From: Eledone cirrhosa
Taxonomy: Eukaryota
Assembly (NCBI GenBank): GCA_964016885.1
Contig: OZ024741.1
Span: 54,684,001-54,748,000 of the forward strand
Length of the DNA: 64,000 nucleotides
Direction: 5' to 3'
Shown: piece by piece, positions 592-32,219 of the stretch
Layout: the number at the start of each line of letters is the position of its first letter
Position numbering within the stretch: the first letter of the stretch is position 1
The notes under the pieces: model-generated
The model's database searches: none
The model's input: only the letters and a program-made list of their open reading frames with translations
What the model was told of the DNA's origin: nothing
Program-made: the position numbers and the translations under genes

Positions 592-2425
592 TTTGGTGTT
601 GAAAGTGAAGAAAGAAAAGCACCTACTTCTCCGGGTTGTGTAATTTCCATGGCGTCAGGTGTGTTGGGTGGAGGGATGTTTTGTGGTGGTGTGGGGGTAC
701 CCGAGTGTGGTGGGGTTGGGGTGTTTGGAGTTGTGTCAGAAGAGGGGAGGTTATGGGGAAATCTTTCAAGAGGACGCGATTTAACGGTTTTAAACAGGGG
801 GTGCTCACGTCCTGTCTAAATTGTTCTTTTAAGGAACGATAAAGGTCCAGAGGGACCTTTATCATTTTTAAATGGGTGAAGTTCTCTGTTGAGATAAAGT
901 TTGGCCCTTCGGTCTGCACCAAAGGGCTATTGTTTATTAATTTAAACAGTTTTTTGTTTTCTTTATTTATATATGTGTATTGCAATGTCTTTTTTTGTGA
1001 TGCTGTCAATGTTTCGGAGAGGGGAGGCGCAGATTTATTTTTGTTTGTTGAGGGTGGGGTGTTTTTGATTGGAGTTGGTGTTTGTGTGTGGGTTATTTGT
1101 GGTGTGCTGGGTGTGTGCTTTCTTTTTTTTCTTTTGACTTGTCTGAAGGCTTCTCCTTCTTCTTCAGAAGTTGGGGGAAACACTTCAGCGCTAGGTGGGA
1201 GGGACGTCGTGTCTGGTTGTTTTTTTTTTGCGGGAGAGGTAGATTTGTTGCTGTTTTTTTTATTATTTGTTTGGAATGCGTTTTGTGGTGGTGGTGGTGA
1301 TGTTTGTGTCGTGCTTGTGGTTGGTAATGGTGGTGGTGATGTTTGTGTTTTGGTTGGTGATGGTGGTGGTGATTTTTGTGTCGTGCTTGTGTTTGGTGCT
1401 GGTGGTGGTGATGTTTGTGTTGTGCTTGTGGTTGGTGGTGTCTGTATTTTGTTTGCTGTGTGTGATATTAGTGTATTTTTGGAGGTGGGTGGTGTTGGTG
1501 TACTGTTTGTGGTGGGTGTGGGCAATAGTCCTTTTTGGGGGATACGTTTCGGGCAATTAGCCTTAATGTTTCCCCTTTCCGTGCATAAATAGCATGCTGG
1601 TCTTCTCCCCTCTACAATTATATCTATTGGGGTGAGGTCATCCAGCCAGATGCGATCCGGGATTTGTGCTATTCTTTCGGGCCTCATTTGGACTAGTAGG
1701 TCGAGGCCCATTCCCAGGAACGCATCTCCGGATGCCTTCCCCATTGACAGCACTGTTTCCTCGCCCATGTCTATGAAGCCAGCAATAGCCCACCAGAAGT
1801 CCATTGTGGGCAGCATTGTTTGTATTTTTACTCTCTGTGTTCTTCTACCCATGTAGGAGGGATAGAAGCTGTATGTTGTCGATGAGAGTGGGCTTAGGGA
1901 AAGCTTCTGCGCCGTTTCCTTGTCTTTTGTTAAGACCGAAATGCTGCCATAGAGTCGGTCCTTTCGTATGAAGAGAATATTCTTCATATAGTCTTTTAGG
2001 ACCAACTCTATCTCCATTTGGCTGGGTTGTGCTGGCTTTCTTGTTTGGTTTGATTTTGTTCTGAAGAGAACTGTGTTCTCTGTTCTCGCTTTCTTGAATT
2101 CTGGGGGGGAGTTAATGGAAAAAATTCCGTTCTCCCCCAAAACAATGTGTTTCTTTGCTTCGGCCAGTTTTTCTCTGGCGGCAGTTAGGTCTATTGGTGT
2201 ATATGTTATGAACTGTTTTGTTTTCTGGGCGAAAGTTGCCTTGTTGTTATTTGTATTATTATTTTCTGTTTGTTTGTCTTCCGTTTGCTCATTTTCCGTA
2301 ATATTTGTTTTTTCATTTTCCTTGTTTGTTTCGTTGTCTACTTTTGTTGTATTTATTTTTTGTTCTTCAGACTTGGGGGGCGTGGCAGAGCTAATGGCAG
2401 ACATGTCTGCCATCTTTTCCGCCAT
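588..2425 (-). CDS. Copy A ORF1 (nucleic-acid-binding protein, about 600 aa)
   Basis: ORF 623..2425 has the knuckle CYLCTERGNIKANC (His replaced by Asn relative to D) and a Pro/Thr-rich linker. A 1-nt deletion near 741-750 shifts the C-terminus out of the conserved MEITQPGE frame. Confidence 0.85.
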
Positions 2426-2860: not shown

Positions 2861-5800
2861 CTACAGGCTGATATAGAGAGAAGGAACATTCACTCGGGCC
2901 ATTCTCGCCACTTTCACCCACCTTTCATAAAACTTGCTGGGGTACAGCACCTCTCTCTCCATCCTGATTCTTCTTCCAAAGTGGTATTTGAGAAAAAGAA
3001 TCAGTTGTTGGCCGGAGAGAAAGGTGTCTGACCTCAGCCCTTTCAACCTTGTCCACCATAAACCTCTTTCGCCATAGCTATCACACAAAGGAAAACCGCC
3101 TCTCCTTCGTTTTTGATGGAGGGCGGCGGTTTGATCATGACAATGGACTCGGTGGTCAACCGCATTGGTCCCACCCGCGACAATAGTCGTTCTACATAGC
3201 CCCACAGGTCAGTGACGCCCGGGCAGTGTATGAATGCGTGCGTGACGGTTTCTTCGTTTCGCACGCACCTCGGACAGATCTTTTTTGCAGGGTCCCTTCC
3301 CGGGCGCCCATGTCTGTAGAGCTTGTCTCGAACTGGTAGAGCTCCTCGGCCAGGGACTTTTGGAAGTTGTCCATCGGTCCCGGGCGGAAGGTCCTACCGA
3401 ACAGACTGGCCAGTTCATCTTCCTCTACGCCTAGAGTTTCACCGAGCGCGTCGTCGCACTTGCTGCGGATCAACCCTCTATAGAATGACGAAGTGGAGTC
3501 TCCACTGATCGCCGGGTCCGCCTGCCAGAGGGCTGTGAGCGCCTGAGCGCATTCGATGTGCCAGTCGCCCATTTTCCTCGGTCTTTGCTTGACCCAGGAC
3601 TGCAGCTCGGTCAGCGAGACGAGTCGTGGGAAGGCTCGCCTCACGAACGGGGCCCACACCGGTTGTCCGGTGAGGAATACGTAGAGATGCCGCAGCCTGA
3701 GCGCGTGTTTGCGCATCGTCAACCACGGCATCCACAGCCCTCCGTTAGAAGGGTGTTGGCAGCAGATGGATCTTCTCACCAAAGGAGCCCGCCTCTTCAA
3801 AAGGAATCGAAAGAGCGCGTGCTCCATTTTGGCGAGCGTTATGGCTGGACAAGGTACGACGGTCAAGCGGTAGTAGATAGCGGACGCTATAAAAGTGTTC
3901 GCCACCTCCGCTCGACCTTTCAAGGATAGTTTGCACTCGGCCCTCTTCTGGGTGAGTGCAAACACCTTGGCCGTCACTTCGTTCCAGTTCTTCTCCACCT
4001 GGAGGTCCGGACCAAACCAGACCCCGAGCAGCTTTACCGGTTCTTGCGTCCAGCGTCCGACGACGCCATCGGAAGGCATCGGTTTGCTCTCCACGATCCG
4101 AGTTGCAAACCGATGGACTTGTCTCGGTTCAGCTTCGCTCCTGTGAAACTTTCGTATTCCTTCAGTAAGGTGCCGACTTCCTCGATTTGCGAGGCGCTCG
4201 ATACCATTACTGTCAATCCAGCCCCTGAACACGGGTCCGAAGCCTGCCGCCTCGAGCACCGCATCCAGGTAACGATGGTCAAACCTATCGAAAGCCTTAG
4301 ACTGATCCAAGTTGATCAGGGCCCCACCGAAGCCGGGTTTACACCCTACCCTCTCTATGATGTATCGCATGAGGTGGAGGTTGTCGTGTATGGACCTGGT
4401 CGGGATTGCGCATGTCTGCGCTTCTCCCACCAGGTTCTCGACGACAAGCCCAGCCTCTTTGCCAACACCTTGGCCAAAATCTGTAACTCTGTGTTTAGCA
4501 GAGTTATGGGCCCGACGTTGCCTATGTCATCGCCCTTACTCTCGTCCTTCCTGATTAGTGTGACCACGCCCCCGGTTACAGAACTGGGAATTCTCCCGTT
4601 ATGTTGCCAGTTGCAGTAGACCGCTTCCAGGAGACCGGAGAATAAGTCCGGCATTGCTACGTAAAATTCGTAGGGTAGACCGTCGAGACCTGGAGATTTG
4701 CGTTTGCCGCATTGGCTCAGCGCGTCCCCTATCTCAGCGGCTGAAATCGACTTTTCGCAGAACTTTGCCTCGCTGTCCGAGAGTCGCGGTAGGCCGTCGA
4801 GGTATGGACCGAAATCCATAGCCCCTCCCGGCGCGCTGTCCCTCCCGAACAGTTGAGCAAAGTGCCGCTGAAAGGCCGCACACATCTGCTTCGGCTCATA
4901 TATCACGCGTCCGTTTTGGTCCTTCAAAGACTGAATCGTGGACTTGTTGCCACTTTTTGCCTCCGTCACTCGGGCCCAGCTAACAGCTTTGGCTCCCTCG
5001 TTTCCCAGAGCACGTATTTTGCTTCTGACAACGCAGCCCTCGTGCTTTGCGTCGAAGACTGGTCCAAGGCCGTTCTAGTTGCTAGCACGCTGGCTACTTT
5101 GCCACTTCTGATTGCCTCTTGTACTTTATCTACCAGTTCCTTCTCGGTTCTATTTCTATCAAACGCTAATTATTTAGTAAAAACTATCGAGTCTAATTTA
5201 ACTGCCCTCTTGAGAGTGTACCACCATCTGTTGTTTATAATGGCCCCTGTCAAGTGCTGTTTAACTAAAGTGCTAATCCGTCTACTGTAGGCTTTGCTTG
5301 TCGGTAACGACAAGTTCAGCTTCCAGTAGCCGCGTCCTTGTCTATGGGTTCTATCAAGGTTGGCCATGCAGGTCACTAGTTTGTGATCTGAATAGGCAAC
5401 CATGAACATTTGTGGACAGCTTAACATGTCCCTATCCTTATTTCTAACTATAACCCTATCTAGGTACGATCTAGATGTTCCGCTACGATTGCTCCACGTC
5501 CACAGTGGCGCAGTCGGAAAATCTAGTCGATATCTATCGGCCAGGTCAAATCGGTCGATTAACTGTTTGAGGCTGTTACACCCCCCTTTATCGGGACATG
5601 CTCCCACATAGTCCCAACGTGCATCTAGGATTCCATTCCAGTCCCCCACTAAAAGCAAGGAGCGGGACGTTCCCAGAAAAGTCTCTAGACGTTTGAAGAA
5701 GTCTGGCCGCGGTGTCCCGGATGGGGCATATGCGGCCACCAGCCTGAAGGCTCCCCCTTCACTACCGTCAACGTCTAGGACCACCAGTCGACCCTCCGGG

Positions 5801-6068
5801 TCCAGATGTACCGTCTGTGTTTACGAGGCCCAGGTGTTTCCGCAGCAAAACGGCAACTCTGTCCTCCCCCCCCCCCGGGTTGACAGAGAGATGCGTAGAT
5901 CTCAAAGTCATCGAAGATGGGGGCCAACTGTCGCTTGCTGTGGATCCTGGACTTGCAAATGGCTACCACATCCATACTGTGCGACCTGAAGTCGTTTAAG
6001 AGTTTGCCCTGTTTCCAGGGCATCCCCAGGCCGCGTATGTTCACACATTCAACTCTTATATTGGCCAT
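2861..6068 (-). pseudogene. Copy B ORF2 (APE-RT-CCHC), multiple frameshifts and internal deletion
   Basis: Starts MANIRVECVNIRG and retains GDWN, SDHK, PGLDG and LDQSKAFDR. The QGCPLS/YADD block is missing. Ends RVNVPSLYISL*. Confidence 0.9.
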
Positions 6069-6101
6069 GTTGGTGCTGAAAAGTTAAAAGAGGAAAAGAG
6101 A

Positions 6102-8034
6102 TCACTCACCCTTCGTCTCCTGGGGACCAGGCCGCACGATTTCCATGGGGGTGTTGGAGGGGTTGTCTGGATGGGTGGTGGTTTCCGGCGGGGTGGGGAC
6201 GGAGATGTTTGGTGGGGTGGGGTCTGGTGGGATGGGGTGTCTGGGGTGGGGAGACATTTGAGAAGGATGCGGTTAAGTGGTTTCACGCAGGAATTCCCCA
6301 CATCCTTCTCAAATGTTTCTTTTAGGGACCTATAAGTTTGTATAGGGACCCTAATTAGTTTTAAGTTCAGTTTTTTGCTATTTTTAATAGAGTGGGCGAA
6401 AGTTTTCCCTTCGGTTTTCACCGAAGGGTCGTTCGTAATGGTCTCCATTAGTGTTTTGTTTTCAGTGTTTATGTAAGTGTAAGTGTAATTTTCTTGTGTT
6501 GTGTTTGTTTTTGTCTGTAGTTCTTGTGTGTGCTTTCGTTTTGTTGTAGGTGTTTTGTTTTCAGGAGGTGGGGGTTTTGTTTGTGATATTTTTGTTGTTT
6601 GTGTTAGTGGTTGTATGTTTGTGGTAGTGTTTGCTGGTTTTTTGCTTTTGTGATGTCTTTTCTTTCTTTTCGAGCGATGGGGTTCTCCCTCGTCTTCACT
6701 GGGTGATGGCGAGATAGCCTCATCTGTTGTATCGTCTGTGTGATTGGGGAGGGGTATGTCTTGGGGAGCTGTTGTGTCTGTATGTGATTTTGCAGTGGTT
6801 TTAGGTGGAGTGGGGTTGGGTGGGACTGTGTTTGTTGTGGTTATTTTTGTGCGTTGGTGGTGTTTTTGTTGTTGTGGTGGTGTTGGTGGTTGTGTTGTTT
6901 TGATGGGTGTCGGCAGAAGAGCTTTTTTTTATTCATTAATTTAGGACAGGAAGCCCTCAGGTGACGCCTGCTAAAGCAATGGTAACATGAAGGCCGCCTA
7001 CCCTCAACCTAAAAGTTTATGTAGGTGAGTCCGTCCAGGAGTACACGTTGTGGGATCATAGCTATTCGCTCTGGGCTCATTTGCACCAGAACTTCAATGC
7101 TAGTCCCATTGAATTAATCTCTGGGGGACTTTACTACTGACAGTATTCTGTCTTCATCAAAATTGATGAAGCCGCACAGTATCCACCATATGTTCACCTT
7201 TGGTGTGACACTCGTGATTTTGATCTTTTGTGTCCTTTTTCCCATGTATGTAGGGAAAAAGGTGTACAGGTTGGATACAATTGGCGACACAGAGTAATTT
7301 TGGGCCGTCAATTGATCCGTCATGAGTACCGAAATACTCCCAAAAAGTTTGCTTCGTTGAATGAATGCAATATCATTTATTGAATTTTTGAAAACCAGTT
7401 CAATTTCTTTCTGTGACAATTGGACTAGTTTTCGGGTAGACTTGGAAACTGTCCTAAAAACTATCGTTTTGAGAGCAGTTTCCTTGCGAATTTCTACCGG
7501 AGAATTGATGCTGAAAGCACCATTTTTTTCGAAAGTGACATATCTCCTAGCGTCCTTTAAAAGTTGTTCAGCATTTGTTATGTCGAGATATATCAGTTCC
7601 TCCTTTTTTTGAACTGTCTGTGCAAAGGAGATTTTGGGTTTCTTTGTGGAATTATCCGTGTTGGTGGTGTTGTCATTATTGTTGTTATTGTTGTGGTTAT
7701 TCTTGTTGTCACCGATGTTGATATTATTCCTATTTTCCTTGGTGTTGTTGTTGTCTTTGATGCTGGTGTTATTGGTGTTGTCTTTATTTTTTTCTTTGTT
7801 GTTGTTATCATTGTTGTTTTTATCATCATTATTGGTGTTGCTGTTATTTTTGTTGTCATTGAACTGTTTGGTGTCATTTGTGTTGTTTGGATATGAATTT
7901 GTTTTTGCATTTTCATTTCGTCTTTCCATCTCTATAGTGTCTATTGAGAAGGAAGGGGAAGAAGACGATGTTGACTGCGAGCTTTGTAGTCATACCGCCT
8001 CTCCACCACCATTATCGTTGGACGCAGCGTTCAT
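6102..8034 (-). pseudogene. Copy B ORF1, disrupted
   Basis: ATG at 8034 is followed by an early TGA. Asn-rich N-terminus, knuckle CYHCFSRRHLRASC near 6945-6990, C-terminus MEIVRPGPQETKGE*. Confidence 0.85.
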
Positions 8035-8592: not shown

Positions 8593-11500
8593 CTACAGGC
8601 CTATATAGAGGCAAGGCCCATTCACTCGGGCCATTCTCGCCACTTTCACCCATCTTTCATAAAACTTGCTGGGGTAGAACACCTCTCTCTCCATTCTGAT
8701 CCTTCTTCTAAAATGGTACTTGAAAAAAAGAACCAGTTGTTGGCCGGAGAGAAAAGTGCCTGACCTCACCCCTTTCAATCTTGTCCACCATACAACCTCT
8801 TTCGCCATAGCTATCACACAGAGGAAAACCACCTCTCCTTCGTTTTGGAAGGGGGAGGCGGTTTGATCGTGACAATGTACTCGGTGGTCAACCGGATTGG
8901 TCCCACCCGTGACAGTAGTCGTTCCATATTAGCCCCACAGGTCAGCAACGCCCGGGCAGTGTACGAATGCGTGCACGACGGTTTCCTCGTCACGCACGCA
9001 TCTCGGACAGATCTTCTTCGAGGGGTCCCTACCCGGGGGCCCGTGACTGTAGAGCTTGTCCCGAACGGGTAGAACTCCTCGGTAGCACTGCCAAGCCAGG
9101 GACTTTTGGAAGTTGTCCATCGGTCCCGGGCCAAACGACCTTCCGAACAGACTGGCTAGCTCGTCTTCCTCCATGCCCAGAGCCTCCCCGAGAGCGTCGT
9201 CGCACTTGCTGCGCACCAACCCTCTATAGAATGTTGAAGTTGAGTCTCCACTGATTGCCGGATTCGCTTGCCAGAGAGTCCTGAGCGTCTGGACACATTC
9301 AATGTGCCAGTCGCCGACTTTTCTCAGTCTTTGCTCGGTGAGTGAGACGAGTCTCGGAAAGGCTCACCTCACAAAAGGAGCCCACACCGGCTGACCGGTG
9401 AGGAATACCTGGATGTGCCGTAGCCTTAGTGCGTGTTTGCGCATCGTCAGCCACGGCAATCCCAGCCCTCCGTTCAAAGGGTGTTGACAGCAAATGGATC
9501 TTCTCACCAAAGGGGCCCGCATCTTCCAAAGGAATCGGAAGAGCGCACGCTCCATTTTGGCGAGAGTTTTCGCTGGGCAAGGCACGACGGTCAAGCGGTA
9601 GTAGATGACGGACGCTATATAAGTGTTCGCCACCTCCGCTCGACCTTTCAGGGATAGTTTTCACTCGGCCCACTTTTGGGCGAGTGCACACACCCTGCCC
9701 GTTACCTCGTTCCAATTTGTCTCCACCTGGAGGTCTGGTCCGAACCAGACCCCGAGCAGCTTCACCGGTCCCTCCGTCCAGCGTCCGACGACGCCGTCGG
9801 AGGACATCGGTGTGCCTCTCAACGTTCCGAGTTGCAAACCGACGGACTTATCCCGGTTCAGCTTGGCTCCTGTTAACCTTTTGTATTCCTCCAGTAAGGT
9901 GCCGATCTGCCCGATTTCCGAGGCGCACGACCCCATTACTGTCACGTCATCGACGTATGCCGACACCGTTTTCCGCAATGCCGGTTCCAAGGTGATTCCC
10001 TGCAACAGCTCCAACTTCCGCAGTAGTGGCTCCAGAGCCAGCACATACAGAAGGGAGAAGAGAGGGCATCCCTGTCGGATGGATCGCGTGATTCGGAACG
10101 GTTAGGTAGCCGTTCATCTCTTCCCTCGAACAGGTGTTTCTGCTGTCCATTGCAGCAATTCGGCCCCTGAAAACGGTTCCGAAGCCTGCCGCCGCTAGCA
10201 CCGCATCCAGGTACCGATGGTCTACCCTATCAAACGCCTTAGATTGATCCAGGTTGATCAGGGCCCCACCAAAGCCGGATTCGTTCCCAACCCTCTCTAC
10301 GATGTATCGCATGAGGTGGAGGTTGTCGTGTATGGACCTAGACGCGATTGAGCATGTCTGCGCTTGTCCCACCAGGTTCCCGACGACAAGCGCCAACCTC
10401 TTCGCTAACACCTACGCCAAAATCTTTAACTCTGTGTTTAGCAGAGTTATGGGCCTGAAGTTATTTATGTTCTCGTCCTTCCTCACCAGCGTGACTACGC
10501 CCTTGGTCACAGAACTGGGAATTCTCCCGTTCTGTTGCCAGTTGCAGTAGACCGCCTCGATGAGATCGGAGAACAAGTCCAGCATCGCTACATAAAGTTC
10601 GTATGGTAGACCATCGAGACCGGGAGATTTGAGTTTGCCTCATAGGCTCAGCGCTTCCCATATTTCAGCGGTTGAAATCGGCCCTTCGCAGGACTTCTCC
10701 TCCCCGGCCGATAGCTGCGGCAGACCGTCGAGGTATGGACCGAAATCCATGGCCTAACCCGGCCTACCGCCCCTCCCGAACAATCGGGCAAAGCGCCGTT
10801 GGAAGGCCGCGCACATCCGCTCAGGTTCAAGGATCACGCGTCCATCCTGGTCCTTCAAAGACCGAATCGTGGACTTGTTTCTCCTTTTTGCCTCTGTCAC
10901 TCGGGCCCAGCTAACAGCTTTGGCTCCCTCGTTACCCAGAGCACGTATTTTACTTCTGACAACACAGCCCTCTTCTTCGCGTCAAAGAACTGGTCTAGGG
11001 CCGTTCTTGACGCCAGCACGCCGGCCACGTTTCCCCTCCTAATCGCCTCTTCTACTCTATCTATCAATTCCCTTTCAGTTCTATTCCTATCTGATGCTAA
11101 TTTCTGACTAAAACCTATCGATTCTATTCTAATTTCTTCTAATTTCTCTTGAGAGAGCCCCACCACCTGCTGTTGACTATTTCCCCCGTCAACCGCTGCT
11201 TAACTAGAGTGCTAATCTGCTTACTGTAAGCTTTGTCTGTCGGTAAGGACAAGTTTAGCTTCCAGTAACCGGGTCCTTGTCTATGGGTTCTATCAAGGTT
11301 GACCACTCCGGTCACCAACTTGTGATCCGAATAGTCAACCATGAACATTTGTGGACTGCTTAATATGTCCCTATCCTTATTTCTAAATAGGAACCTATCT
11401 AGGTACGACCTAGATGTTCCACTGCCATTAGTCCACGCCACAGTGGCACAGTCGGAAAATCTAGTCGATATCTATCGGCCAGATCAAATCGGTCGATTAA

Positions 11501-12032
11501 CCGTTTGAGGCTGTTGCACCCCTCTCTATCGGGACATGCCCCACATAGTCACAACGTGCATCCAGGATACCATTCCCGTCCCGCACTAAAAGCAATGAGC
11601 GAGACGTTCCCAGAAAAGTCTCTAGGCGTTTGAAGAAGTCTGGTCGCGGTGTCCCAGATGGGGCATACGCTGCCACCAGCCTGAATGCTCCACCTTCACT
11701 ACTGCCTACGTCTAGAACCACCAGTCGACCCTCCGGGTCCAGGTGTACCTTCCGTGTTGCGAGGCCCATGTGTTTTCGTAGCAGAACGACCACTCCGCCC
11801 CCACCCCCCGGCTGACAGAGAGATGCATAGATCTCAAAGTCGTCGAAGATGGGGGCCATTTGATGATCGCTGCTAATCCTGGTCGCTGCTGATCCTGATC
11901 GCTGCTGATCCTGGACTCGCAAATAGCTATCACATCCATTCTGTGCGACCTGAGGTCATTTAAGAGTTTGCCCTGCTTCCAGGACATCCCCAGACCGCGC
12001 ACATTTAAACATCCAACTCTTATAACAGCCAT
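8593..12032 (-). pseudogene. Copy C ORF2 (APE-RT-CCHC), frameshifted
   Basis: Starts MAVIRVGCLNVRG and retains LDQSKAFDRVDH, YVDD and CPRC..H..HC. A 16-17 bp unit is triplicated at about 11865-11913. Confidence 0.9.
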
Positions 12033-12075
12033 GTTGGTGGTGAAGAGTTTAGAGTGGAGGAAAAGGAAAAGACAC

Positions 12076-13802
12076 CTACCTGTCCTTCTCCTGGGGACCA
12101 GGCTGCACAATTTCCATGGGGGAGTCGGCGGGGTTGTTTGATGGGGTGGGGGTGTTTTGTGGAGGACGGATGTCTGGGGTGGTGGTGGGGAAACATTTCA
12201 AGAAGACGCGGTTGCTAGGTCTAGTACAGAGATTCCCCACGTCCTCGGGAAGGTTCTGTTTGAGCATTGTGTAGGTGACCCCTGGGACCCTAATCATTTT
12301 TAAATGCGGTTTAGTCGCCGCGTTGGTTAACATTTTCCCTTCGGTTTCCACCGAAGGGTCTTTGTCTATTGTTTGCACAAGTGTTTTGTTGTTTGTGATG
12401 TTTGTTCTGTTTGTGCTGGTGGTTGTGTGTTTGTTACATTTTTGTTAATGTGGTGCCTTCTTTTCTTTCTTTTTACCGGTTGAAAGGGTTCTCCCTCGTC
12501 GTCACTGGGTGACGTTGATAAAGGGTCCTCGTCCGTGTTTTGGGGGAGGGGTATACTTTGGGGTTTTGTTGAGGTTGCTTTTGTATTTGTTTTAGCTGGG
12601 GAGGGGCTGGGTGGGACAGTGTCTTGTGTTGTTATTTTTTCCTGTTGTTGTGGTTGTTGTGGTGGTTGTTGTGGTGGTGGTTGTGTTGTTGGGTGTGGGG
12701 TGAGCAGAAGCATGTTTTTTTTTGGGGGGGGGGGCATTTAAAAGGGGACAGGAAGCCCTCAGGTGACGACTTCTTGAACAGTGTTAGCATGAAGGCCGCC
12801 TGCCCTCAACATAAATGTTTAATAAGGCGACTCCATCCAGGGACACACGCTGCGGTATTCTTGCTATCCGTTCTGGTCTCATTTGGACCAGAACTTCAAG
12901 GCTATTGCCGCCGAATACGCCCCCGGCGGATTCGCCTATCTAAAGGATTGTGTCCTCATCTTCTAAGAATCCCGTTAGCACCCACCAAATGGTCACATTT
13001 GGCCTGATGCCCGAGATTCTTATTTTTGAGTTGTTTTCCCCAAATATGTGGGGAAAAAGGTGTATGCTTTGGATACAATTGGCGACACAGAATATTTCAG
13101 TGCCGCCAATTCATCTTGCATTAAAACAGATATGCTTCCATACAGTTTCCCTTTCTGTATGAAAGCAATATCCTTCCAGGCACTACTTAGGACCAGCTCA
13201 ATTTCGATTTGGGACAATTGAGCCGGTTTCCTAGTCGTGTTCGAAACTGTCCTAAAGATTACAGTCCCGAGGACTGTATCCCTTCTAATTTCTTCGGGGG
13301 AGGTAATTGTGAATTCCACACCTTTCTCGAAATTTACACAATTCCTTGCTTCTTTCAGTAATTTCTAGGCATTCGAGATGTCCAGTGCCTTGTATGTCTA
13401 CGTTTCTCGGACCGCTTGTGCGAAGGAGACTGCAGCTGTGGGTCCGTTTTCTTTCGTGTTGTTATCATTGTTGTTGTTGTTATTCGTGTTGGCTTGCTTT
13501 TTTCCTTTGTTGGTGTTGTCATTATTGCTGTTGTTGGTTGTGTTGTTATTGTCATTGTTGCTGTTGTTGGTTGTGTTGTTATTGTCATTATTGCTGTTGT
13601 TGGTTGTGTTGTTATTGTCATTGTTGTTCTTGTTTGTGTAATTGTTACTTTTGGGGTTTTCACCCATTTCCACAATTTTTTCTTTTGACTCCGTGGTGTC
13701 TTTTGCGGGAGTGAGGTGGGAAGGCTTAAAGCGTTGTGCTGCTACCTTCTCTCTATCACTTTCCTTGGGGGGCGTGGCATGCGTCGTATTAATGGCGTCC
13801 AT
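12076..13802 (-). pseudogene. Copy C ORF1, disrupted
   Basis: MDAINTT start, Asn-rich repeats, knuckle remnant near 12750-12790, C-terminus MEIVQPGPQEKDR*. Confidence 0.85.

Positions 13803-14105: not shown

Positions 14106-14160
<55 letters not shown>
14002..14160. repeat. Imperfect (GATA)n junction between copies C and D
   Basis: Read directly; a few interruptions. Confidence 0.97.
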
Positions 14161-14161
<1 letters not shown>

Positions 14162-14391
14162 ATTTCTATTTATTTGCCACGAGGGCACAAAAGAAGGGGA
14201 CATTTACACAGTGGGGGAGTTTACATAAATCGAGTAAAGAAAAAAGGAATAACAATAATAATATAACAATAAAAGTCCTCAAAAGGGAGGGGGCGTGTTG
14301 GGGATTGCACATACCCCCGAAAAGTGTGCAACTCTTTTCGCGGGGGAAGCCCAGAGAGGAGGCGCTCCCCCTTTCCTCTTCACTTCTTCAC

Positions 14392-17300
14392 CTACAGAAC
14401 AATGTAGAGAGAAGGCCCATTTACACGGGCCATTCTCGCTTCTTTCACCCACCTTTCATAAAACTGTCTGGGACCAAGCACTTCTCTCTCCATCCTGATT
14501 CTTCTTCCGAAGTGGTATCGGAAGAAGTAAACCAGGTGATGGCCGGAGAGAAAGTCACCCGACCTCAGACCTTTCAGGCGCGTCCACCACACAACCTCTT
14601 TCATCATGGCTATTACGCACAGAAAGACCGCCTCTGCTTCATTTCTGAAGGGAGGAGGCGGCTTGATGTTCACCACAGACTCGGCGGTTAATCGAATCGG
14701 CGCCACACGCGACAGCAGTCGTTCGACGTAGCCCCACAGATCGGCAACGCCCGGGCAGTGTACCAGTGCATGCGCAACGGTTTCCTCGTCGCGCACGCAT
14801 CTGGGACAGATCTTTTTCGCGGGATCCCTGCCCGGGCGCCCGTGTCTGTAGAGCTTTTCTCGAACGGGCAGAGCCCCCCGGTAACACTGCCAGGCTAGGG
14901 ACCTCTGGAAGTTGTCCATAGGTCCCGGGCCGAAAGTTCTACCGAACAGGCTGGCCAGTTCGTCCTCCTCCATGCCTAGCGACTCTCCAAGGGTGTCGTC
15001 GCCCCTGCTAGCCACCAACCCTCTATAGAATGTCGAGGTGGATTCTCCACTGACAGTCGGGTCCGCTTGCCAGATAGCCGTGAGCGCCTGGGCACACTCA
15101 GTGTGCCAGTTGCCCAGTTTTCTCGGTCTTTGCTTCACCCAGGATTGCAGTTCGGTGAGCGAGACGAGCTGTGGGAAGGCTCGCCTCACAAACGGGGCCC
15201 ACACCGGCTGACCGTTGAGGAATACCTGTAGATGCCGTAGCCTCAATGCGTGCCTACGCATCAACAGCCACGGCATACCCAGCCCTCCTTTCGAAGGGTG
15301 CTGGCAGCAGATGGATCTCCTCACCATGGGAGGCCGCTTCTTCCAGAGGAACTGGAAGAGCATGCGTTCCATGATGGTGAGCTTTTCCTTGGGGCAAGGC
15401 ACGACGGTCAGGCGGTAGTAGATGACGGACGCTATGTAAGCGTTCGTCACCTCCGCCCGACCTTTCAGTGATAGTTTGCACTTGGCCCACTTCTGGGTCA
15501 GCGCAAACACCCTGCTCGTCACCTCGCCCCAATTCTTCTCCACCTGGAGGTCCGGTCCGAACCAGACCCCGAGCAGCTTCACCGGGCCCTCCGTCCACCG
15601 CCCGACGACACCGTCTAACGGCATCGGTTTGCCCCTCCACGTTCCGAGTTGCAAACCGACTGACTTGTCCTGGTTCAGCTTAGCCCCCGTCAGCCTTTCG
15701 TATTCCTCCAGTAGGGTGGCGATCGCCCCGATTTCCGAGGCGTCCGCCACCATTACTGTTACGTCGTCGGCATAGGCCGAGACCGCTTTGTGCAATCCCG
15801 GTTCCAGGGGTATGCCCCGCAGCAACTCCAACTTCCGCAGCAGTGGCTCGAGAGTCAATACGTACAGAAGGGAGGAGAGGGGGCACCCCTGTCTGATGGA
15901 TCGGGTGATTTGAAACGGCTCCGAGAGGTAGCCGTTTACTTTAATCCTAGAGTAGATGTTGCCACTGTGCATGGCAGAAATCCAGCCCCTGAAAACGGGT
16001 CCGAAGCCCGCCGCCGCTAGCACCGCATCCAGGTAACCATGGTCGACCCTATCGAACGCCTTAGATTGATCCAAGTTGATCAGGGCCCCACCAAAGCCGG
16101 GTTCGTAGCCAACCCTCTCTATGATGTATCGCATGAGGTGGAGGTTGTCGTGAATGGACCTGGACGGGATAGCGCATGTCTGCGCGTCTCCCACCAAACC
16201 ACCCACCACAAGCGCCAACCTCTTCGCCAACACCTTGGCCAAAATCTGTAACTCTGCATTCAGCAGAATTATGGGCCTAAAGTTACTTAAGTCGTCCCCC
16301 TTGCTCTCGTCCTTCCTCACTAGCGTGACCACGCCCTTGGTCACAGAACAGGGAATTCTCCCGTTCTGTTGCCAGTTGCAATAGACAGCCTCGAGGAGTT
16401 CGGAGAACAAGACCGGCATAGCTAAATAAAGTTCGTATGGTAGACCATCGAGACCCGGGGATTTGCGTCTGCTGCATTGGCTGAGCGCTTCCCCGATTTC
16501 AGTGGCTGTGATTGGCCCTTCGCAGCACTCCGCTTCGCCGCTCGAAAGACGCGGTAGACCGTCGAGGTATGGACCGAAGTCCACATCCCCGTCCGGCCCC
16601 CCGCCACCTCCGAACAGTCGAGCAAAGTGCCTTTGAAAGGTCTCGCACATTCGCTCAGGTTCAAGGATCACCCGTCCATCCTGGTCTCGCAAAGACCGAA
16701 TGGTGGATTTAATCCCACTCTTGGCTTCTGTCACGCGGGCCCAGCTAACAGCTTTGGTCCCCTCGTTTCCTAAAGCACGTATTTTACTTCGGACAAAGCA
16801 GCCTTCGTGCTTCGCGTCAAAGAACTGGCTCAATGCCGTTCTCGTCGCTAACACTCTGGCTACGTCTCCGCTCCTAATCGCCTCTTCTAGTTTATCTGTT
16901 AACTCCCTTTCCCTCCTATTTCTATTCGCCGCTAGTTCCTTACTGTAACCTATCGAACTTACTCTAATCTCTCTCTTTAGAGATATCCACCACCTACTGT
17001 TGACGATCGCTCCCGTCAACCGCATCTTAACTAAGCTACTAATCCGGTTTCTGTAATCTTTCTTTGTCGGTAAGGACAAGTTCATCTTCCAGTAACCGGG
17101 ACCCTGTCTATGCGTTCTATCAAGGTTGACCACGCAGGTCACTAATTTGTGATCTGAATAGCCAACCATGATCAGTTCTGGACAACTAAATACGTCCCTA
17201 TCCTTACTCCTAACCAAAAACCTATCTAGGTACGATCTAGATTGTCCACTGCGGTTTGCCCAGGTCCAGGTTGGCGCAGTTGGACAATCTAGTCGAAATC

Positions 17301-17829
17301 TATCGACCAGGTCGAATCGATCGAGTAACCCCTTGAGGCTGCTACACCCCCCTCTATCGGGACATGCCCCTGCATAGTCCCAACGCGCATCTAGGATTCC
17401 ATTCCAGTCCCCCACTAAAAGCAGGGAACGCGACGTTCCTAGAAAAGTCTCCAGACGTTGGAAGAAGTCGGCTCTCTCCGCCCCGAAGGGAGCATAAAGA
17501 CCGACCAGTCTGAAAGCCCCGCCTTCACCACCTCCGACGTCCAGCACCAGTAATCGACCCCCCGGGTCCGAGTGAACAATCTGTACGTCGAGAGTCAGAC
17601 GTTTATCCAGCAGTACGGCAACTCCCCCCCCGCCTCCGGGTTGACAGAGAGATGCGTGCATCTCAAAGTCATCGAAGGCGGGCGCCAGCTGTCTCACGCT
17701 GCTGATCCGACTCTCGCAAACAACCATCACATCTATACTTTGTGACCTGAGGTCACTTAGAAGCTTTGCTTGCTTCCAAGCTGAGCTCAGGCCACGCGCG
17801 TTCAAACAGCCAACTCTCAATTGATCTAT
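14392..17829 (-). CDS. Copy D ORF2: APE endonuclease, reverse transcriptase and C-terminal CCHC finger
   Basis: Uninterrupted 1142-aa ORF from TTG at 17820. APE motifs CLNARG, CES, GDWN, YLDR, SDH; RT motifs PGLDG, LDQSKAFDRVDH, RQGCPLS, YADD, KLLGV; finger CPRCVRDEETVAHALVHC. The codon aligned with the B/C start ATG is ATA (17829-17827). Confidence 0.96.
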   Translation of the reverse strand: MDQLRVGCLNARGLSSAWKQAKLLSDLRSQSIDVMVVCESRISSVRQLAPAFDDFEMHASLCQPGGGGGVAVLLDKRLTLDVQIVHSDPGGRLLVLDVGGGEGGAFRLVGLYAPFGAERADFFQRLETFLGTSRSLLLVGDWNGILDARWDYAGACPDRGGCSSLKGLLDRFDLVDRFRLDCPTAPTWTWANRSGQSRSYLDRFLVRSKDRDVFSCPELIMVGYSDHKLVTCVVNLDRTHRQGPGYWKMNLSLPTKKDYRNRISSLVKMRLTGAIVNSRWWISLKREIRVSSIGYSKELAANRNRRERELTDKLEEAIRSGDVARVLATRTALSQFFDAKHEGCFVRSKIRALGNEGTKAVSWARVTEAKSGIKSTIRSLRDQDGRVILEPERMCETFQRHFARLFGGGGGPDGDVDFGPYLDGLPRLSSGEAECCEGPITATEIGEALSQCSRRKSPGLDGLPYELYLAMPVLFSELLEAVYCNWQQNGRIPCSVTKGVVTLVRKDESKGDDLSNFRPIILLNAELQILAKVLAKRLALVVGGLVGDAQTCAIPSRSIHDNLHLMRYIIERVGYEPGFGGALINLDQSKAFDRVDHGYLDAVLAAAGFGPVFRGWISAMHSGNIYSRIKVNGYLSEPFQITRSIRQGCPLSSLLYVLTLEPLLRKLELLRGIPLEPGLHKAVSAYADDVTVMVADASEIGAIATLLEEYERLTGAKLNQDKSVGLQLGTWRGKPMPLDGVVGRWTEGPVKLLGVWFGPDLQVEKNWGEVTSRVFALTQKWAKCKLSLKGRAEVTNAYIASVIYYRLTVVPCPKEKLTIMERMLFQFLWKKRPPMVRRSICCQHPSKGGLGMPWLLMRRHALRLRHLQVFLNGQPVWAPFVRRAFPQLVSLTELQSWVKQRPRKLGNWHTECAQALTAIWQADPTVSGESTSTFYRGLVASRGDDTLGESLGMEEDELASLFGRTFGPGPMDNFQRSLAWQCYRGALPVREKLYRHGRPGRDPAKKICPRCVRDEETVAHALVHCPGVADLWGYVERLLSRVAPIRLTAESVVNIKPPPPFRNEAEAVFLCVIAMMKEVVWWTRLKGLRSGDFLSGHHLVYFFRYHFGRRIRMEREVLGPRQFYERWVKEARMARVNGPSLYIVL

Positions 17830-19671
17830 TTTGGTGTTGAAAGTGAAGAAAGAAAAGCACTTACCTCTCCGGGTTGCGTAATTTCCATGGCATCAGGTGT
17901 GTTGGGTGGAGGGATGTTTTGTGGTGGTGTGGGGGTACACGTGTGTGGTGGGGTTGGGGTATTTGGAGTTGTGTCAGGGAGAGGGGCGGTTATGGGGAAA
18001 TCTTTCAAGAGGACGCGATTCAACGGTTTTAAACAGGGGGGGCTCACGTCCCGTCTAAATTGTTCTTTTAAGGAACGATAAAGGTCCAGAGGGACCTTTA
18101 TCATTTTTAAATGGGTGAAGTTCTCTGTTGAGATAAAGTTTGGCCCTTCGGTCTGCACCATAGGGTTATTGTTTATTAATTTAACCAGTTTTTTGTTTTC
18201 TTTATTTATATATGTGTATTGCAACGTCTTTTTTTGTGATGCTGTCAATGTTTCGGAGAGGGGAGGCGCAGATTTATTTTTGTTTGTTGAGGGTGGGGTG
18301 TTTTTGATTGGAGTTGGTGTTTTTGATTGGAGTTGTGTGGGTTATTTGTGGTGTGCTGGGTGTGTGTTTTCTTTTTTTTCTTTTAACTTGTCTGAAGGCT
18401 TCTCCTCCTTCTTCTTCAGAAGTTGGGGGAAACTCTTCAGCGCTAGGTGGGAGGGACGTGTTGTGTGGTTGTTTTTTTTTTGCGGGAGGGGTAGATTTGT
18501 TACTGTTTTTTTTATTATTTGTTTGGAATGGGTTTTGTGGTGGTGGTGGTGGTAATGTTTGTGTCGTGCTTGTGGTTGGTAATGGTGGTGGTGATGTTTG
18601 TGTTGTGGTTGGTGGTGGTGATTTTTGTGTCGTGCTTGTGTTTGGTGCTGGTGGTGGTGATGTTTGTGTTGTGTTTGTGGTTGGTGGTGTCTGTATTTTG
18701 TTTGCTGTGTGTGGTATTAGTGTATTTTTGGAGGTGGGTGGTGCTGGTGTACTGTTTGTGGTGGGTGTGGGCAATAGTCCTTTTTGGGGGATACGTTTCG
18801 GGCAGTTAGCCTTAACGTGTCCCCTTTCCATGCATAAATAGCATGCTGGTCTTCTCCCCTCTACAATTATGTCTATTGGGGTAAGGTCATCCAGCCAGAT
18901 GCGATCCGGGATTTGTGCTATTCTTTCGGGCCTCATTTGGACTAGTATGTCGAGGCCCATTCCCAGGAACGCATCTCCAGTTGCCTTCCCCATTGACAGC
19001 ATAGTGTCTTCGCCCATATCAATGAAGCCAGCAATAGCCCACCAGAAGTCCATTGTGGGCAGCATTGTTTTTACTTTTACCCTCTGTGTTCTTCTACCCA
19101 TGTAGGAGGGATAGAAGCTATATGTTGTCGACGAGAGTGGGCTTAGGGAAAGCTGAACCGCCGTTTCTTTGTCTCTTGTTAGGACCGAAATGCTGCCATA
19201 GAGTCGGTCCTTTCGTATGAAGAGAATATTCTTCATATAGTCTTTTAGGACTAACTCTATTTCCACTTGGCTGGGCTGTGCTGGCTTTCTTGACTGGTTT
19301 AGTATAGTTCTGTATATAACTGTGTTTTCTGCTCTGGCTTTCTTGAATTCTGGGGGGGAGTTAATGGAAAACATTCCGTTCTCCCCCAAAACAATATGTT
19401 TCTTTGCTTCGGCCAGTTTTTCTCTGGCGGCAGTTAGGTCAATTGGTGTGTATGTAATGGATTGCTTTGTTTTCTGGGCGAAAGTTGCCCTGTCGTTATT
19501 TGTATTATTTTCTGTTTGTTTGTTTTCTGTTTGCTCATTTTCCTTAACATTTGTTTTTTCATTTTGTTTGTTTGTTTCAATGTCTAATTTTGTTGTAATT
19601 ATTTTTTGTTCTTCAGACTTGGGGGGCGTGGCAGAGCTAATGGCAGACATGTCTGCCATCTTTTCCGCCAT
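17826..19671 (-). pseudogene. Copy D ORF1 with a single frameshift
   Basis: CX2CX4HX4C knuckle CYLCMERGHVKANC. Split into 18274..19698 and 17826..18248 by a 19-bp tandem duplication at 18297-18334. Confidence 0.9.
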
Positions 19672-19871
19672 GCTGCCAAGAAAGAAATTTTTCGGCAAAA
19701 ATAGATATTTATTTTACCCCCTAAAAAGGGGGTAAATGCAAAAATGTTTCCCTAAATAACAGGGGTTAGTGTTCCAAATGTGTTGCACTAAAAATTTATC
19801 CGGTACTTACAATAGTAAGGGTAAATCCCGATGGAATAGCGGAGCCGATACGAAGCGTGTCTTACTCTATC

Positions 19872-19872
<1 letters not shown>

Positions 19873-19922
<50 letters not shown>
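19873..19922. repeat. (AGAT)12 at the outer 5' flank of the array
   Basis: Read directly. Confidence 0.97.
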
Positions 19923-25599: not shown

Positions 25600-26550
25600 A
25601 GATAAAAGTTCAAGGAAAACAATGCCCAATCTATTGAAAGAGAGCTTATTTAGTATAAATAAAGTTGCATATACTCAACATGTATGTGCGACCATTGGTT
25701 TCGGGTCCAGTTATGGCCACCTCTAAATAGCTGAGGAGGGTCTTCCAAACAGGCCTCTCGTCGATCACTCAGACAAAAATACGAAAAGGGAAACTTCTTT
25801 AGTTGTCTATATATGGTTTTAAACAGTGGAGAGTTTTATATCGGAAACAAGGAAGGTAATTCCTGAGTGTTTTCATTGCACTGTCAGCCTAAATTTATTT
25901 GCGTGTAGTATGCGAGAGGTTTGAGTTGCATGCTAATTATCTAAAAGCTTTAACCCCCTTGAGTGAGATCGCTACCAATGGAGGTGGCAGAGTGTTTATT
26001 TTGGGGGAATCAAGGAAGGCAAATTTTGGAGTTGTAAATGGCTCTTTCCAACCTGGCTGATCAGCCCTATTGCAAACACTTAAAATAATTAAGATAAAAT
26101 ATTTAAAATATTTATGTCTCCTCTAATAAATCCTCAATATTTAAACTCTGAATATGTAAAAAATTTATTGTATATGTGATTGTTTGGCTGCAATACAATA
26201 TTGTAATACTAAACCCTCTTTCAACAGACTATTTAGTGTAGGTAGGTGTACTGTGTTCGTTGAAAGGTAACAGAGGGGAATAGTGTTATGGAAGATTTAG
26301 AAGGTCTGCTGAAGGGACATCTTTTAATGAGCTTTCACATGGCTAAAACGTGAGCCTTCTGATGCAAACAACGTCTAAAGAACTCTGTTTGGGTGTTTAG
26401 GTATGTTTCAGGTGAGTATAAACTCTGCAAAATCCTAAATTTCTCGCTGAAGCAGAGCGGGCATATCATCCTTCCTTGTCTGTATGGCGTAGACTTTGGA
26501 GCACTTTCCATGTAATGTCATGTGGTAATCCAAGGGTATTTTTAAATAAT
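25600..26550 (-). mobile_element. Penelope-like element 3' remnant (endonuclease C-terminus plus 3' region)
   Basis: 26335-26550 on the minus strand reads ITWKVL / PYRQGRMICPLCFSEKFRIL..LNTQTEFFRRCLH, the W..PY..CxxC..EK..LN..E..C.H tail typical of Penelope-like GIY-YIG domains. A decayed hammerhead lies downstream at 25686-25768. Confidence 0.7.
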
Positions 26551-26633
26551 TATTATCGACAGATATATCAATAGAGATAGCAGTAACTTAAATACGAAAA
26601 TATAATTTCATTAAATAATAGTAATGCTTTACA

Positions 26634-27128
26634 TGATGAAGATGACGATGATAATGATGTTGTTGTTGTTGGTGGTGTTGTTGTTTTGTGGTGGTGGTGG
26701 TGGTTGTGGTGTTGGTGTTGGTGATGTTGATGGTGTTGGTGGTGGTGGTGTTGGTATTGGTGATGTTGGTGGTATTGGTGGTGGTGGTGGTGGTGGTGGT
26801 GGTGTTGGTGGTGGTGGTGGTGGTGGTGTTGGTGGTGGTGGTGTTGGTGGTGGTGTTGGTGGTGTTGGTGGTGGTGGTGGTGGTGGTGGTGGTGTTGGTG
26901 GTGGTGGTGTTGGTGGTGGTGGTGTTGGTGGTGGTGTTGGTGGTGGTGTTGGTGGTGGTGTTGGTGGAGGTGTTGGTGGTGGTGTTGCTGGTCTGATTGC
27001 TGGAAGTGGTGGTGATTATGATCGTGATGATGAAGATTATGTTGATGTTGAGAAGTGGGAGCGAGATGACAATGATGCTGATCTTGATGTTGATAATGAT
27101 GATGATGACGATTATGATGGTGTTGATG

Positions 27129-27160
<32 letters not shown>

Positions 27161-27492
27161 GATGGTGTTGATGACCATGATGACGATGATCATGATGATG
27201 ATGATCATGAGGAGGAGGAGGAGGATACTGGTGATGATGATCTGGATCATAATCTGGATAAGAATGCGGAAAAATCATAATGATGAGGATGATAAAGAAA
27301 AGAAGGATGAGATGGATGAGGAGAAGGAGGAAGGAGAAGAAAGGTAGTAGGAAGGGGAGAATAAGGAGAGAAGGAGGAGGAGGAGAGGGAAAAATGGTGG
27401 ATGGTGAAGGAGAGGAAGTAGGTGGAGGAAATGAGGATGAACAGGATATTGATCATGAAGATCATGATGATTATGATGATTATGATGAAGAT
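26634..27492. repeat. Compound trinucleotide tract (GGT/GAT/GGA)
   Basis: Read directly. Confidence 0.95.
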
Positions 27493-27689
27493 TAAATAAG
27501 ATAATTAATAATAAGACAACGACTGGTAACCATGTTATCCTTATTCCTCTTATAGTTCTATCTGACAGTTGAATTTGTTGTTGCTTTTGTTGTTGTATTT
27601 GTTGTTGTATTTGTTGTTGATGTTTTTACTTTGTTCAAGTATTCATTCCAGAATGTTATTTTGCATTCCCGAATTTGAAAATATACTTA

Positions 27690-30370
<2,681 letters not shown>

Positions 30371-30629
30371 TACATGCATTCTTCTATATTTACATAGGTA
30401 CTATGGCTGATCTTATACCGATGTATAAAATAATATTTATACTTCGATGCACGCATGTATGCACATGTTTCACATATATGCTTTATACGCACACTCACAT
30501 ACAGACATACACGCACGCGCGAGCGCACACACACAAACAAACACGCATATACACATAAACACACACGCATATATATATAGAGAGAGAAAGGCATAGATAG
30601 ATACATACATACATATATACATACATACA

Positions 30630-31240
30630 TAGTGGCTGCCAACTCGTTTTCGAGTACGGCCACTACTTTATATCCATGTAGGAGAACCCCTACCGATGGG
30701 CTGAACGAGTGTGACTTTTTAGTCCCGCCAGCGACTTGAAAACTCTGGTACAAACACTACACTTGTGACAATTATTGACACATAGTGCTGGGCCCATGGT
30801 ACCATGTGACGACAAGTGCAGAGAGATCTCCAGATATAAAGCAATGCCTGTGCCGTGAAGCTTTTATAGTGAGCAAAGGCACTGCACAAAGCCAGTCCCA
30901 CTCTCTTAACCAAGATGATATTTACCAAAAAGAAGAACAAGTCAACATCATTGGATACCATCAGGGTTGCAGGTGTTATATCAGAGTTTTCCTTCTCCTA
31001 GAACTCTGCCTTGACAAAGGCTAAGGGGTCATCTCTCCCAGTGATTTTGGATGGCCATTGACTCTTAAGAGCTCCTTTGCCCTTTGACAGGTTTTGTTTT
31101 TAGTCCTGCAGGATGTCTAAAGTCACCCTCCTCACCAAGAAACCTTGGTGGGGTTGCCAGTTTAGTCGCCAACGACCCGACCATGAAACAGGTTGTACTG
31201 GGATACATGTTACCAGTAGCACCAAGTGGTGATCTGACAT
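30630..31240 (-). mobile_element. Internally deleted (bipartite) RTE-derived non-autonomous retroelement
   Basis: RTE-type 5' UTR motif CTAGGAGAAGGAAAACTCTGA joined to a terminal C2H2 finger CSVCTRVFKSLAGLKSHTRSAHR* (30690-30773), a 3' hairpin and a (TATG)n tail. Confidence 0.7.
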
Positions 31241-31242
31241 AA

Positions 31243-31431
31243 CATACATACATACATACATACATACATACATACATACATACATACATACATACATACA
31301 TACGTACGTACGTGCGTACATACATATATACATACATACATACATACATACGTACATACATACGTATATACATACGTACATACATATATACATACATACT
31401 TACATACATACATACATACGTACATACATAT
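31243..31431. repeat. (TACA)n microsatellite
   Basis: Read directly. Confidence 0.95.
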
Positions 31432-31432
31432 A

Positions 31433-31805
31433 TGTGGACATCAGCTGCCCACTTGATGTAAACGTTGTCAGAAAAATACAGGAGAAGTAGGACATCTACG
31501 GACCATTGATGAGGAGTTTACAAATTCAGTATCCAAGATACACCTTTAGCTTCATACCCATCATTATTGGAGCTACGGGTTATATACCAACCCACTTGGA
31601 CCAAAGTATGACTGAACTTGGATTTGCGGACAAAAAGCGCAGCTCCCTATTTCATAGTCTACAAATGGCTGCGATAGCTGGCACCTTCAAAATTTGCAAA
31701 ACATTCTTGCGATTCAAGGGATGACAACTTCTTTTCTTTTACAACCTTGCCACCAGGAAGGTGGCCGGTCAAAAAAATATACTCGAAATTAAGAGAAAGA
31801 GAAAA
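31433..31805 (+). mobile_element. R4/Dong-type RLE element, TACA family 2, 3' fragment
   Basis: Highly similar to 48028-48398; ISCPLD..PIIIGATG; TACA on both sides. Confidence 0.85.

Positions 31806-32177: not shown

Positions 32178-32219
<42 letters not shown>

What the first reader, a model, noticed from the sequence alone, without database searches (positions are those of the whole stretch)
14382..17864. The whole of ORF2 of the Tx1-like elements looks like a spliceosomal intron
Seen on the minus strand: a 5' splice-donor motif at the end of ORF1 in all four copies, D GAG|GTAAGT (17864), A GAA|GTAGGT (626), B AGG|GTGAGT (6109) and C CAG|GTAGGT (12079). The ORF2 stop codon is an acceptor-like polypyrimidine-CTGTAG|G in all three visible 3' ends (D 14392, B 2861, C 8593), followed by GAA/GAG-rich sequence resembling a splicing enhancer. 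In the conserved MEI(T/V)(Q/R)PG frame the donor phase differs (D 0, B 1, C 2), yet each downstream exon supplies TGA in the matching frame: D GAG|GTG AAG AAG TGA, B G|GT TGA, C AG|G TGA. Inference: a spliced ORF1-only mRNA and an intron-retained genomic RNA set the ORF1:ORF2 ratio, analogous to copia gag splicing. I do not know of this layout being described for Tx1 elements. Caveats: no clear branch point, and B and C have another AG 8 nt upstream of the stop.
Basis: partly seen in the sequence, partly recalled or inferred. Interest (0 to 1): 0.88.

Follow-up and report, generated by a model that had tools for sequence, protein, structure and literature searches.

The report
LINE whose ORF2 looks intronic
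A large family of jumping genes (LINE retrotransposons) keeps a splice-start signal exactly where its first gene ends and a weaker splice-end signal where its enzyme gene ends, which likely lets the cell cut out the whole enzyme gene to make a message for the first protein alone, under the control of a predicted RNA clamp between the two ends; no spliced RNA has been seen.

Summary
Observation confirmed; interpretation plausible, unproven. In 17 subfamilies of this genome the donor GT-RR-GT sits at the ORF1 end in all three reading phases, although fourfold sites agree only about 50-77% between main lineages. ORF2 ends in TAG in 16 of 17; one abundant subfamily has TAA and no acceptor there. 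A stop follows within 3 codons of the predicted join in 11 of 17 (5.7 expected; families not independent). The 'enhancer-like' purine run is complementary to the pyrimidine run behind the donor: a predicted helix closes ORF2 as one loop (best partner in 13 of 14; in only 1 of 4 full-length folds). No spliced genomic copy was found against 4096 and 773 unspliced matches. No RNA run was listed. Best reading (0.55): helix-damped splicing gives an ORF1-only mRNA, working like copia gag splicing. The scan reported this idea, and the helix, before on other DNA of this genome.

The parts
14160..19873 (-). Element D, full-length LINE (L1/Tx1-like) between (TATC)n runs; member of a very young subfamily
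   Evidence: sequence; 40 of 40 scored matches 100% identical over 401 nt
19752..19810 (-). 59-nt intron-like segment in the 5' UTR (GTAAGT ... ACTAAC ... TAG), retained in DNA
   Evidence: no exon-exon join in 333 loci
17826..19671 (-). ORF1 with one CX2CX4HX4C knuckle; this copy is frameshifted near 18320; 21 of 30 D-type loci are open for at least 1830 nt
   Evidence: no Pfam family
17859..17867 (-). 5' splice-donor motif GAG|GTAAGT, phase 0
17830..17858 (-). Pyrimidine-rich spacer, 5' strand of the predicted long-range helix
14392..17829 (-). ORF2 (endonuclease, reverse transcriptase, zf-RVT), 1145 codons, starting with ATA instead of ATG
14414..14431 (-). Conserved small hairpin GGCCC-loop-GGGCC in the last ORF2 codons, at branch-point distance from the AG
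14391..14412 (-). Acceptor-like site, pyrimidines + CTGTAG|G; the AG is the ORF2 stop; best-scoring AG of 261 in a D copy
14342..14391 (-). Purine-rich start of the 3' UTR (3' strand of the helix) running into a local hairpin whose 5' arm and loop are complementary to the donor region
14169..14174 (-). AATAAA poly(A) signal before the (TATC)n run
8593..12079 (-). Copy C: donor CAG|GTAGGT (phase 2) to acceptor-like ORF2 stop; degenerate ORF2
2861..6109 (-). Copy B: donor AGG|GTGAGT (phase 1) to acceptor-like ORF2 stop; degenerate ORF2
621..629 (-). Copy A donor GAA|GTAGGT (phase 0); its 3' end lies outside the window and is D-type
   Evidence: L149

Best explanation
These LINEs carry a splice donor at the end of ORF1 and an acceptor-like AG at the ORF2 stop, and likely splice out all of ORF2 from part of their transcripts to give an ORF1-only mRNA, while a predicted helix between the spacer and the 3' UTR would mask both sites and keep the rest unspliced. 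Shown: the motifs, their conservation, the complementarity, the absence of spliced DNA copies. Inferred: U1 binds the donor; the stop-codon AG (or the AG 7 nt before it, where present) is the acceptor; the product encodes almost the same ORF1p with a short 3' UTR; it makes no ORF2p and lacks the ORF2-terminal hairpin, so it is not copied back into DNA; only the clamped, unspliced RNA makes ORF2p and serves as template.
For: Donor at the ORF1 end in 17 of 17 subfamilies, in phases 0, 1 and 2, 27-47 nt before the ORF2 start in the representatives; 27 of 28 junctions reached by a protein search that did not select for the motif have GTAAGT. G+1, T+2, G+5, T+6 invariant in 15 of 15 while the partner of T+2 is C5/G4/A3/T3; in B, D/A, J, J2, J3 and O the motif is not the ORF1 stop. 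TAG stop in 16 of 17 although the next two letters vary (GT 12, GC 2, GG 1, TT 1). That AG ranks 1-4 of 234-275 AGs in 10 of 14 subfamilies by a crude score of my own, ties allowed. Stop within 3 codons of the join: 11 of 17 (5.67 expected, P 0.003), 6 of 6 non-phase-2 (P 0.006), 8 of 14 without B, C, D (P 0.02); 14 of 17 with the first AG. J3 (phase 1) and J2 (phase 0) differ by one letter before the donor and one after the acceptor, and each keeps the stop in its own phase. Helix: 3' UTR start is the best partner of the junction among about 400-560 windows in 13 of 14; own pairs beat foreign pairs by 6.2 kcal/mol (p 5e-5, kinship not controlled). Precedent in LTR elements (PMC5580714 passages; PMC3735527 abstract).
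Against: No spliced genomic copy: 0 for D, 0 against 4096 unspliced, 0 of 21 other continuations, 0 for J, J2, J3 against 773 unspliced J/J3, 0 of 233 3' UTR hits, 0 in 333 loci; human L1 does leave spliced copies (PMC5860796 abstract). Subfamily I (17 of the parsed copies, 16 with TAA) has a perfect donor but no AG at the stop; its next AG ranks 67 of 263 and would add 84 codons. With the stop AG the phase match fails in F1, F2, G2, G3, B', I (28-84 added codons). With a penalty for a nearby upstream AG only D and E rank first. No consensus branch point. The P values treat related subfamilies as independent and the 3-codon threshold was taken from copy D. In phase-2 families +2..+4 are the stop codon and +1, +5, +6 pair in the helix, so much of the motif has other causes. 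The helix forms in 8 of 8 trimmed folds but not in a longer D fold nor in 3 of 4 full-length folds; forcing it in D costs 31 kcal/mol.
Confidence: 0.55

Rival explanations
1. The donor is a U1 landing site that is rarely or never spliced: bound U1 protects the long RNA from early cleavage and polyadenylation or aids its processing, and the helix serves another purpose.
For: Donor kept where the acceptor is lost (family I). A second retained intron-like segment in the 5' UTR of many subfamilies, never found joined. U1 has this second role in EVD (PMC5580714 passages). AATAAA/ATTAAA at 16713 and 15945 inside ORF2 and four in the 3' half of ORF1 of D.
Against: Does not explain TAG in 16 of 17, the high rank of that AG, or the phase-matched stops. 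ORF2 has few poly(A) signals to suppress.
Confidence: 0.2
2. The helix is the function: it clamps the ORF1 stop, the ORF2 start and the ORF2 stop together to control re-initiation on ORF2 or to mark intact template RNA; the splice-like look arises from a stop codon plus pairing.
For: Complementarity in all lineages including I. The letters after TAG follow the spacer (GT with AC; GCT with AGC in J2, J3). Donor +1, +5, +6 pair in 15 of 15. Purine arms with a T give a stop in some frame by themselves.
Against: Pairing allows any covarying sequence, yet the donor strand is fixed while its partner varies; T+2 is invariant where it is neither paired nor part of a stop.
Confidence: 0.15
3. The donor is real but splices to other acceptors (inside ORF2, in the next element of the array, or host exons).
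For: Some internal AGs score as well as the stop AG in several subfamilies; family I has no good acceptor at the stop.
Against: No internal AG is top-ranked across lineages; none of 21 alternative continuations was a splice product.
Confidence: 0.07
4. A very short intron from the donor to an AG just before the ORF2 start fuses ORF1 to ORF2.
For: B, B' and M have ...TTCAG 7 nt before the ORF2 ATG; in phase-2 B' and M this would be in frame (sequence).
Against: No such AG in C, E, F, G, I, J, K; in B and D the join is out of frame; length 34-39 nt is below usual metazoan introns (recalled).
Confidence: 0.03

Closest known systems
Ty1/copia subgenomic gag splicing (Arabidopsis EVD, PMC5580714 passages; barley BARE1, PMC3735527 abstract; Drosophila copia recalled)
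   Same: Conserved U1-type donor, partial splicing to a structural-protein-only RNA with a stop right after the join, unspliced RNA as genome.
   Different: Those are LTR elements with one gag-pol frame; EVD's intron is short and coupled to early polyadenylation. Here a two-ORF LINE would lose the whole 3.5-kb ORF2 and keep its own 3' UTR, and a long-range helix overlaps both sites. Splicing is proven there, untested here.
Tx1-group LINEs that target microsatellites (Kibi (TC)n, Koshi (TTC)n, crocodilian (TTCC)n/(TTTC)n; PMC4494074 passages)
   Same: Two ORFs, APE endonuclease + RT, insertion in simple repeats: here (TATC)n/(TA)n and, for I and J, (ATT)n.
   Different: Other repeat units; no splicing or long-range helix in the passages seen; tree placement with named Tx1 families not tested.
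Human L1 splicing and SpIREs (PMC5860796 abstract)
   Same: Splice sites inside a LINE, including the 5' UTR.
   Different: L1 splicing is described as inhibitory and leaves spliced genomic copies; here sites are conserved at ORF boundaries and no spliced copy was found.
ORF1-only telomeric LINEs of Drosophila (PMC13534243 passages)
   Same: ORF1-only products of two-ORF LINEs.
   Different: Those are DNA-level families that lost ORF2; the paper's main text has no 'splic' or 'intron'.

Membership tests
L1/Tx1 clade LINE | ORF2 with APE endonuclease, RT and C-terminal zinc motif | tested here: met
   Exo_endo_phos 41-248, RVT_1 533-777, zf-RVT 998-1053 (below its cut-off)
L1/Tx1 clade LINE | ORF1 with CCHC knuckle and/or RRM (PMC5203782 passages) | tested here: inconclusive
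   One CX2CX4HX4C motif in the sequence; no Pfam family
Tx1 target-specific group | Insertion in a repeated target | tested here: met
   3' flanks are (TATC)n/(TA)n-type or (ATT)n by subfamily
Tx1 target-specific group | RT tree position among named Tx1 families | not testable with these tools
   No named Tx1 reference among 53 homologues
U2-type spliceosomal intron | 5' splice site AG|GTRAGT-like | tested here: met
   17 of 17 subfamilies
U2-type spliceosomal intron | 3' YAG | tested here: met
   TAG in 16 of 17; absent at the stop in family I
U2-type spliceosomal intron | Polypyrimidine tract and branch point | tested here: inconclusive
   9-13 pyrimidines of 16; upstream AG in 9 of 17; no consensus branch point, a hairpin lies there
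U2-type spliceosomal intron | Removal from RNA | not testable with these tools
   No RNA holder listed
copia-type subgenomic gag RNA | LTR element with single gag-pol frame | tested here: not met
   Two-ORF non-LTR element; analogy only
copia-type subgenomic gag RNA | Stop shortly after the join | tested here: inconclusive
   11 of 17 with the stop AG, 14 of 17 with the first AG, 15 of 17 with either
SpIRE (spliced retrotransposed copy) | Genomic copies with the exact exon-exon join | tested here: not met
   0

The most novel reading that the evidence does not exclude
A LINE lineage encodes its entire reverse-transcriptase gene inside a spliceosomal intron bounded by the two stop codons, and tunes splicing with a covarying helix that loops ORF2 out and masks donor and downstream exon, so that translation RNA (spliced, ORF1 only) and template RNA (clamped, unspliced) form two pools.
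Probability: 0.45. Interest if true: 0.8.

Novelty: new variant of a known kind. Interest (0 to 1): 0.62.

Why it matters
LINEs need far more ORF1p than ORF2p and are thought to set this ratio by weak re-initiation on one bicistronic RNA (recalled), with splicing seen as harmful to them (PMC5860796 abstract). A lineage that has kept splice signals on both ORF boundaries through deep divergence would be a LINE counterpart of copia gag splicing, reached independently, with an RNA switch. It is testable at once in any RNA data of the host, and thousands of copies with a strong donor could also splice into host transcripts.

Tried and rejected
No RNA holder listed; this says nothing on expression. 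Contigs of four coded runs of unrecorded kind were laid on 14150-19400: single contigs of run X4 bridge the donor (17644-17990) and the acceptor (14152-14760) unspliced, none of the 15 joints shown (of 99) is the predicted one; contigs cannot show absence or level, so not used as evidence. Viral contigs gave no relative. Of 40 distant metagenome loci (21-52% identity), 7 had a recognisable endonuclease start and 0 of 7 had the strict donor within 200 nt: the layout is not general for L1/Tx1. Closer homologues (38-68%) came without DNA or names. Whole-RNA folding gave mixed answers. A paper search for the U2AF35 UAG/GU preference found nothing; that point is recalled only and not used. Rejected: the 3' motif as a donor CT|GTAGGT (G1 and J2 have CTATAG); chance; a fusion mini-intron as the general rule.
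Full report
Setting. Window 1-19.9 kb holds four head-to-tail LINE copies on the minus strand, separated by (TATC)n. Copy D has an open ORF2 of 1145 codons with endonuclease, RT and zf-RVT domains. The genome G000 has 3.0 Gb; no call of mine names the host (earlier notes call it octopus-like; not tested). D belongs to a very young subfamily: 40 of 40 scored matches are identical over 401 nt and 21 of 30 loci have ORF1 open to the locus edge.

Observation. All donors, acceptors, phases and stops are as written. The strict motif occurs only once or twice per element.

Sampling. I fetched 120 stretches of 10 kb and 20 of 4 kb. A tblastn pipeline paired ORF2 starts with their own ends in 106 elements; 100 could be parsed and fell into 14 subfamilies (6 dropped because start or stop did not parse; their rows still show the donor). 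J2, J3 and O were added, giving 17. Forty of the 10-kb stretches were chosen from hits of a pattern that requires the donor; the subfamilies E, F, G, I, J were first met as unselected neighbours, and J2, O and I2 in a protein search, where 27 of 28 junctions have GTAAGT, one has a 1-nt deletion, and 2 of 30 loci had no junction; J3 came from the same search list.

Donor. G+1, T+2, G+5, T+6 are invariant in 15 of 15 representatives, G-1 and A-2 in 14 of 15, while fourfold sites of ORF2 agree about 50-77% between main lineages and more within close groups. In 11 subfamilies (phase 2) the ORF1 stop is inside the donor; in B, J, J3, O (phase 1) and D, J2 (phase 0) it is not, and the motif stays. 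I take the donor as very likely functional (about 0.85). It is lineage-specific: 0 of 7 distant L1/Tx1-like elements show it.

Acceptor. ORF2 ends in TAG in 16 of 17. By a crude score of my own this AG ranks 1-4 of 234-275 AGs in 10 of 14, first and alone in D and E; with a penalty for a nearby AG only D and E stay first (my note said 9, the output gives 10). Nine of 17 have an AG 7 nt upstream; from a phase-2 donor it gives one more codon and ORF2's own stop. Family I has TAA and a poor next AG. No consensus branch point; a conserved hairpin lies there.

Phase. Stop within 3 codons: 11 of 17 (5.67 expected) with the stop AG, 14 of 17 (8.33) with the first AG, 15 of 17 (9.33) with either; 6 of 6 non-phase-2 with the stop AG. 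Subfamilies are related and the threshold comes from D, so the P values (0.0007-0.09) overstate. In C, E, G1, M the spliced ORF1p would end exactly as the unspliced one.

Helix. The junction's best partner within its element is the start of the 3' UTR in 13 of 14 (F2, probably a recombinant copy, fails); 11 of 14 are reached by at most 4 of 300 shuffles; own pairs beat foreign ones by 6.2 kcal/mol; z is -1.7 to -5.4 in J2, I2, O, J3. The helix puts the ORF2 start beside the ORF2 stop, covers the donor and the first 45-55 nt of the would-be exon, and competes with a local 3' UTR hairpin. One strand is in the intron, the other in the exon, so it would hinder rather than help splicing (inference). 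It forms in 8 of 8 trimmed folds, where ends pair easily, but not in a longer D fold and in only 1 of 4 full-length folds. It explains the purine run and the GT after TAG, but not the fixed T+2.

Spliced copies. None: against 4096; 0 of 21; one hit, an unspliced variant; against 773 J+J3; 0 of 233; 0 in 333 loci, 1.98 Mb. This counts against frequent splicing only if an ORF1-only RNA can be copied in trans. An intron-like 51-68-nt segment in the 5' UTR of many subfamilies is likewise always retained in the loci held, which fits either two RNA pools, as in BARE (PMC3735527 abstract), or U1 sites that are not spliced.

Literature. Nine searches listed no paper on whole-ORF2 splicing or such a helix in a LINE; the library lacks most subscription papers, and Repbase notes were not seen. 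Read: PMC5580714 passages, PMC3735527 and PMC5860796 abstracts, PMC4494074, PMC13282606, PMC13534243, PMC5203782 passages; PMC1636488 (TART splice sites) and PMC5135761 (3' stem-loops of stringent LINEs) search listings only. No supplements were opened. Cis preference, re-initiation on ORF2 and AUG-independent ORF2 starts are recalled.

Verdict. Real, conserved architecture; works like copia gag splicing if spliced, but is not a member of that system. Helix-damped whole-ORF2 splicing 0.55; U1 site only 0.2; helix only 0.15; other acceptors 0.07; fusion 0.03. Interest 0.62, held down by the lack of any RNA evidence.

Noticed in passing
window 17826-17835 (D) and copy A; L001-L030: The young D subfamily has no ATG at the ORF2 start: ATA overlaps the ORF1 stop (A-TAG) in 30 of 30 loci. 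ORF2 would need an AUA re-start or a -1 slip on the run of four A.
   Followed up: partly
window 19752-19810 and copy A near 2565: Textbook-looking 59-nt intron in the 5' UTR, with similar segments in B (14 of 18), E (6 of 7), F, G, K; always retained in the loci held.
   Followed up: partly
L370, L371 (G000 C1:423.39 Mb, C1:324.50 Mb): Subfamily J3: many copies with intact 1139-codon ORF2, some in runs spaced about 5.84 kb apart; a second young lineage.
   Followed up: partly
L241-L260, L259: Subfamilies I and J sit in (ATT)n, the others in (TATC)n/(TA)n: a target switch within one clade.
   Followed up: partly
L218, L225, L137: M and some F copies combine the junction of one subfamily with the 3' UTR of another, suggesting recombination between subfamilies.
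   Followed up: no
L284, L285 (metagenome): A distant L1/Tx1-like element has TG|GTAAGA just before an overlapping ORF1-stop/ORF2-start (ATGA); may be chance.
   Followed up: no
window 26000-36000: Very AT-rich simple-repeat region (GC down to 0.15) with long open frames on both strands.
   Followed up: no
window 46723-49783 and 56717-57892: Two 241-codon frames of equal length on the minus strand and a 391-codon frame on the plus strand, not examined.
   Followed up: no
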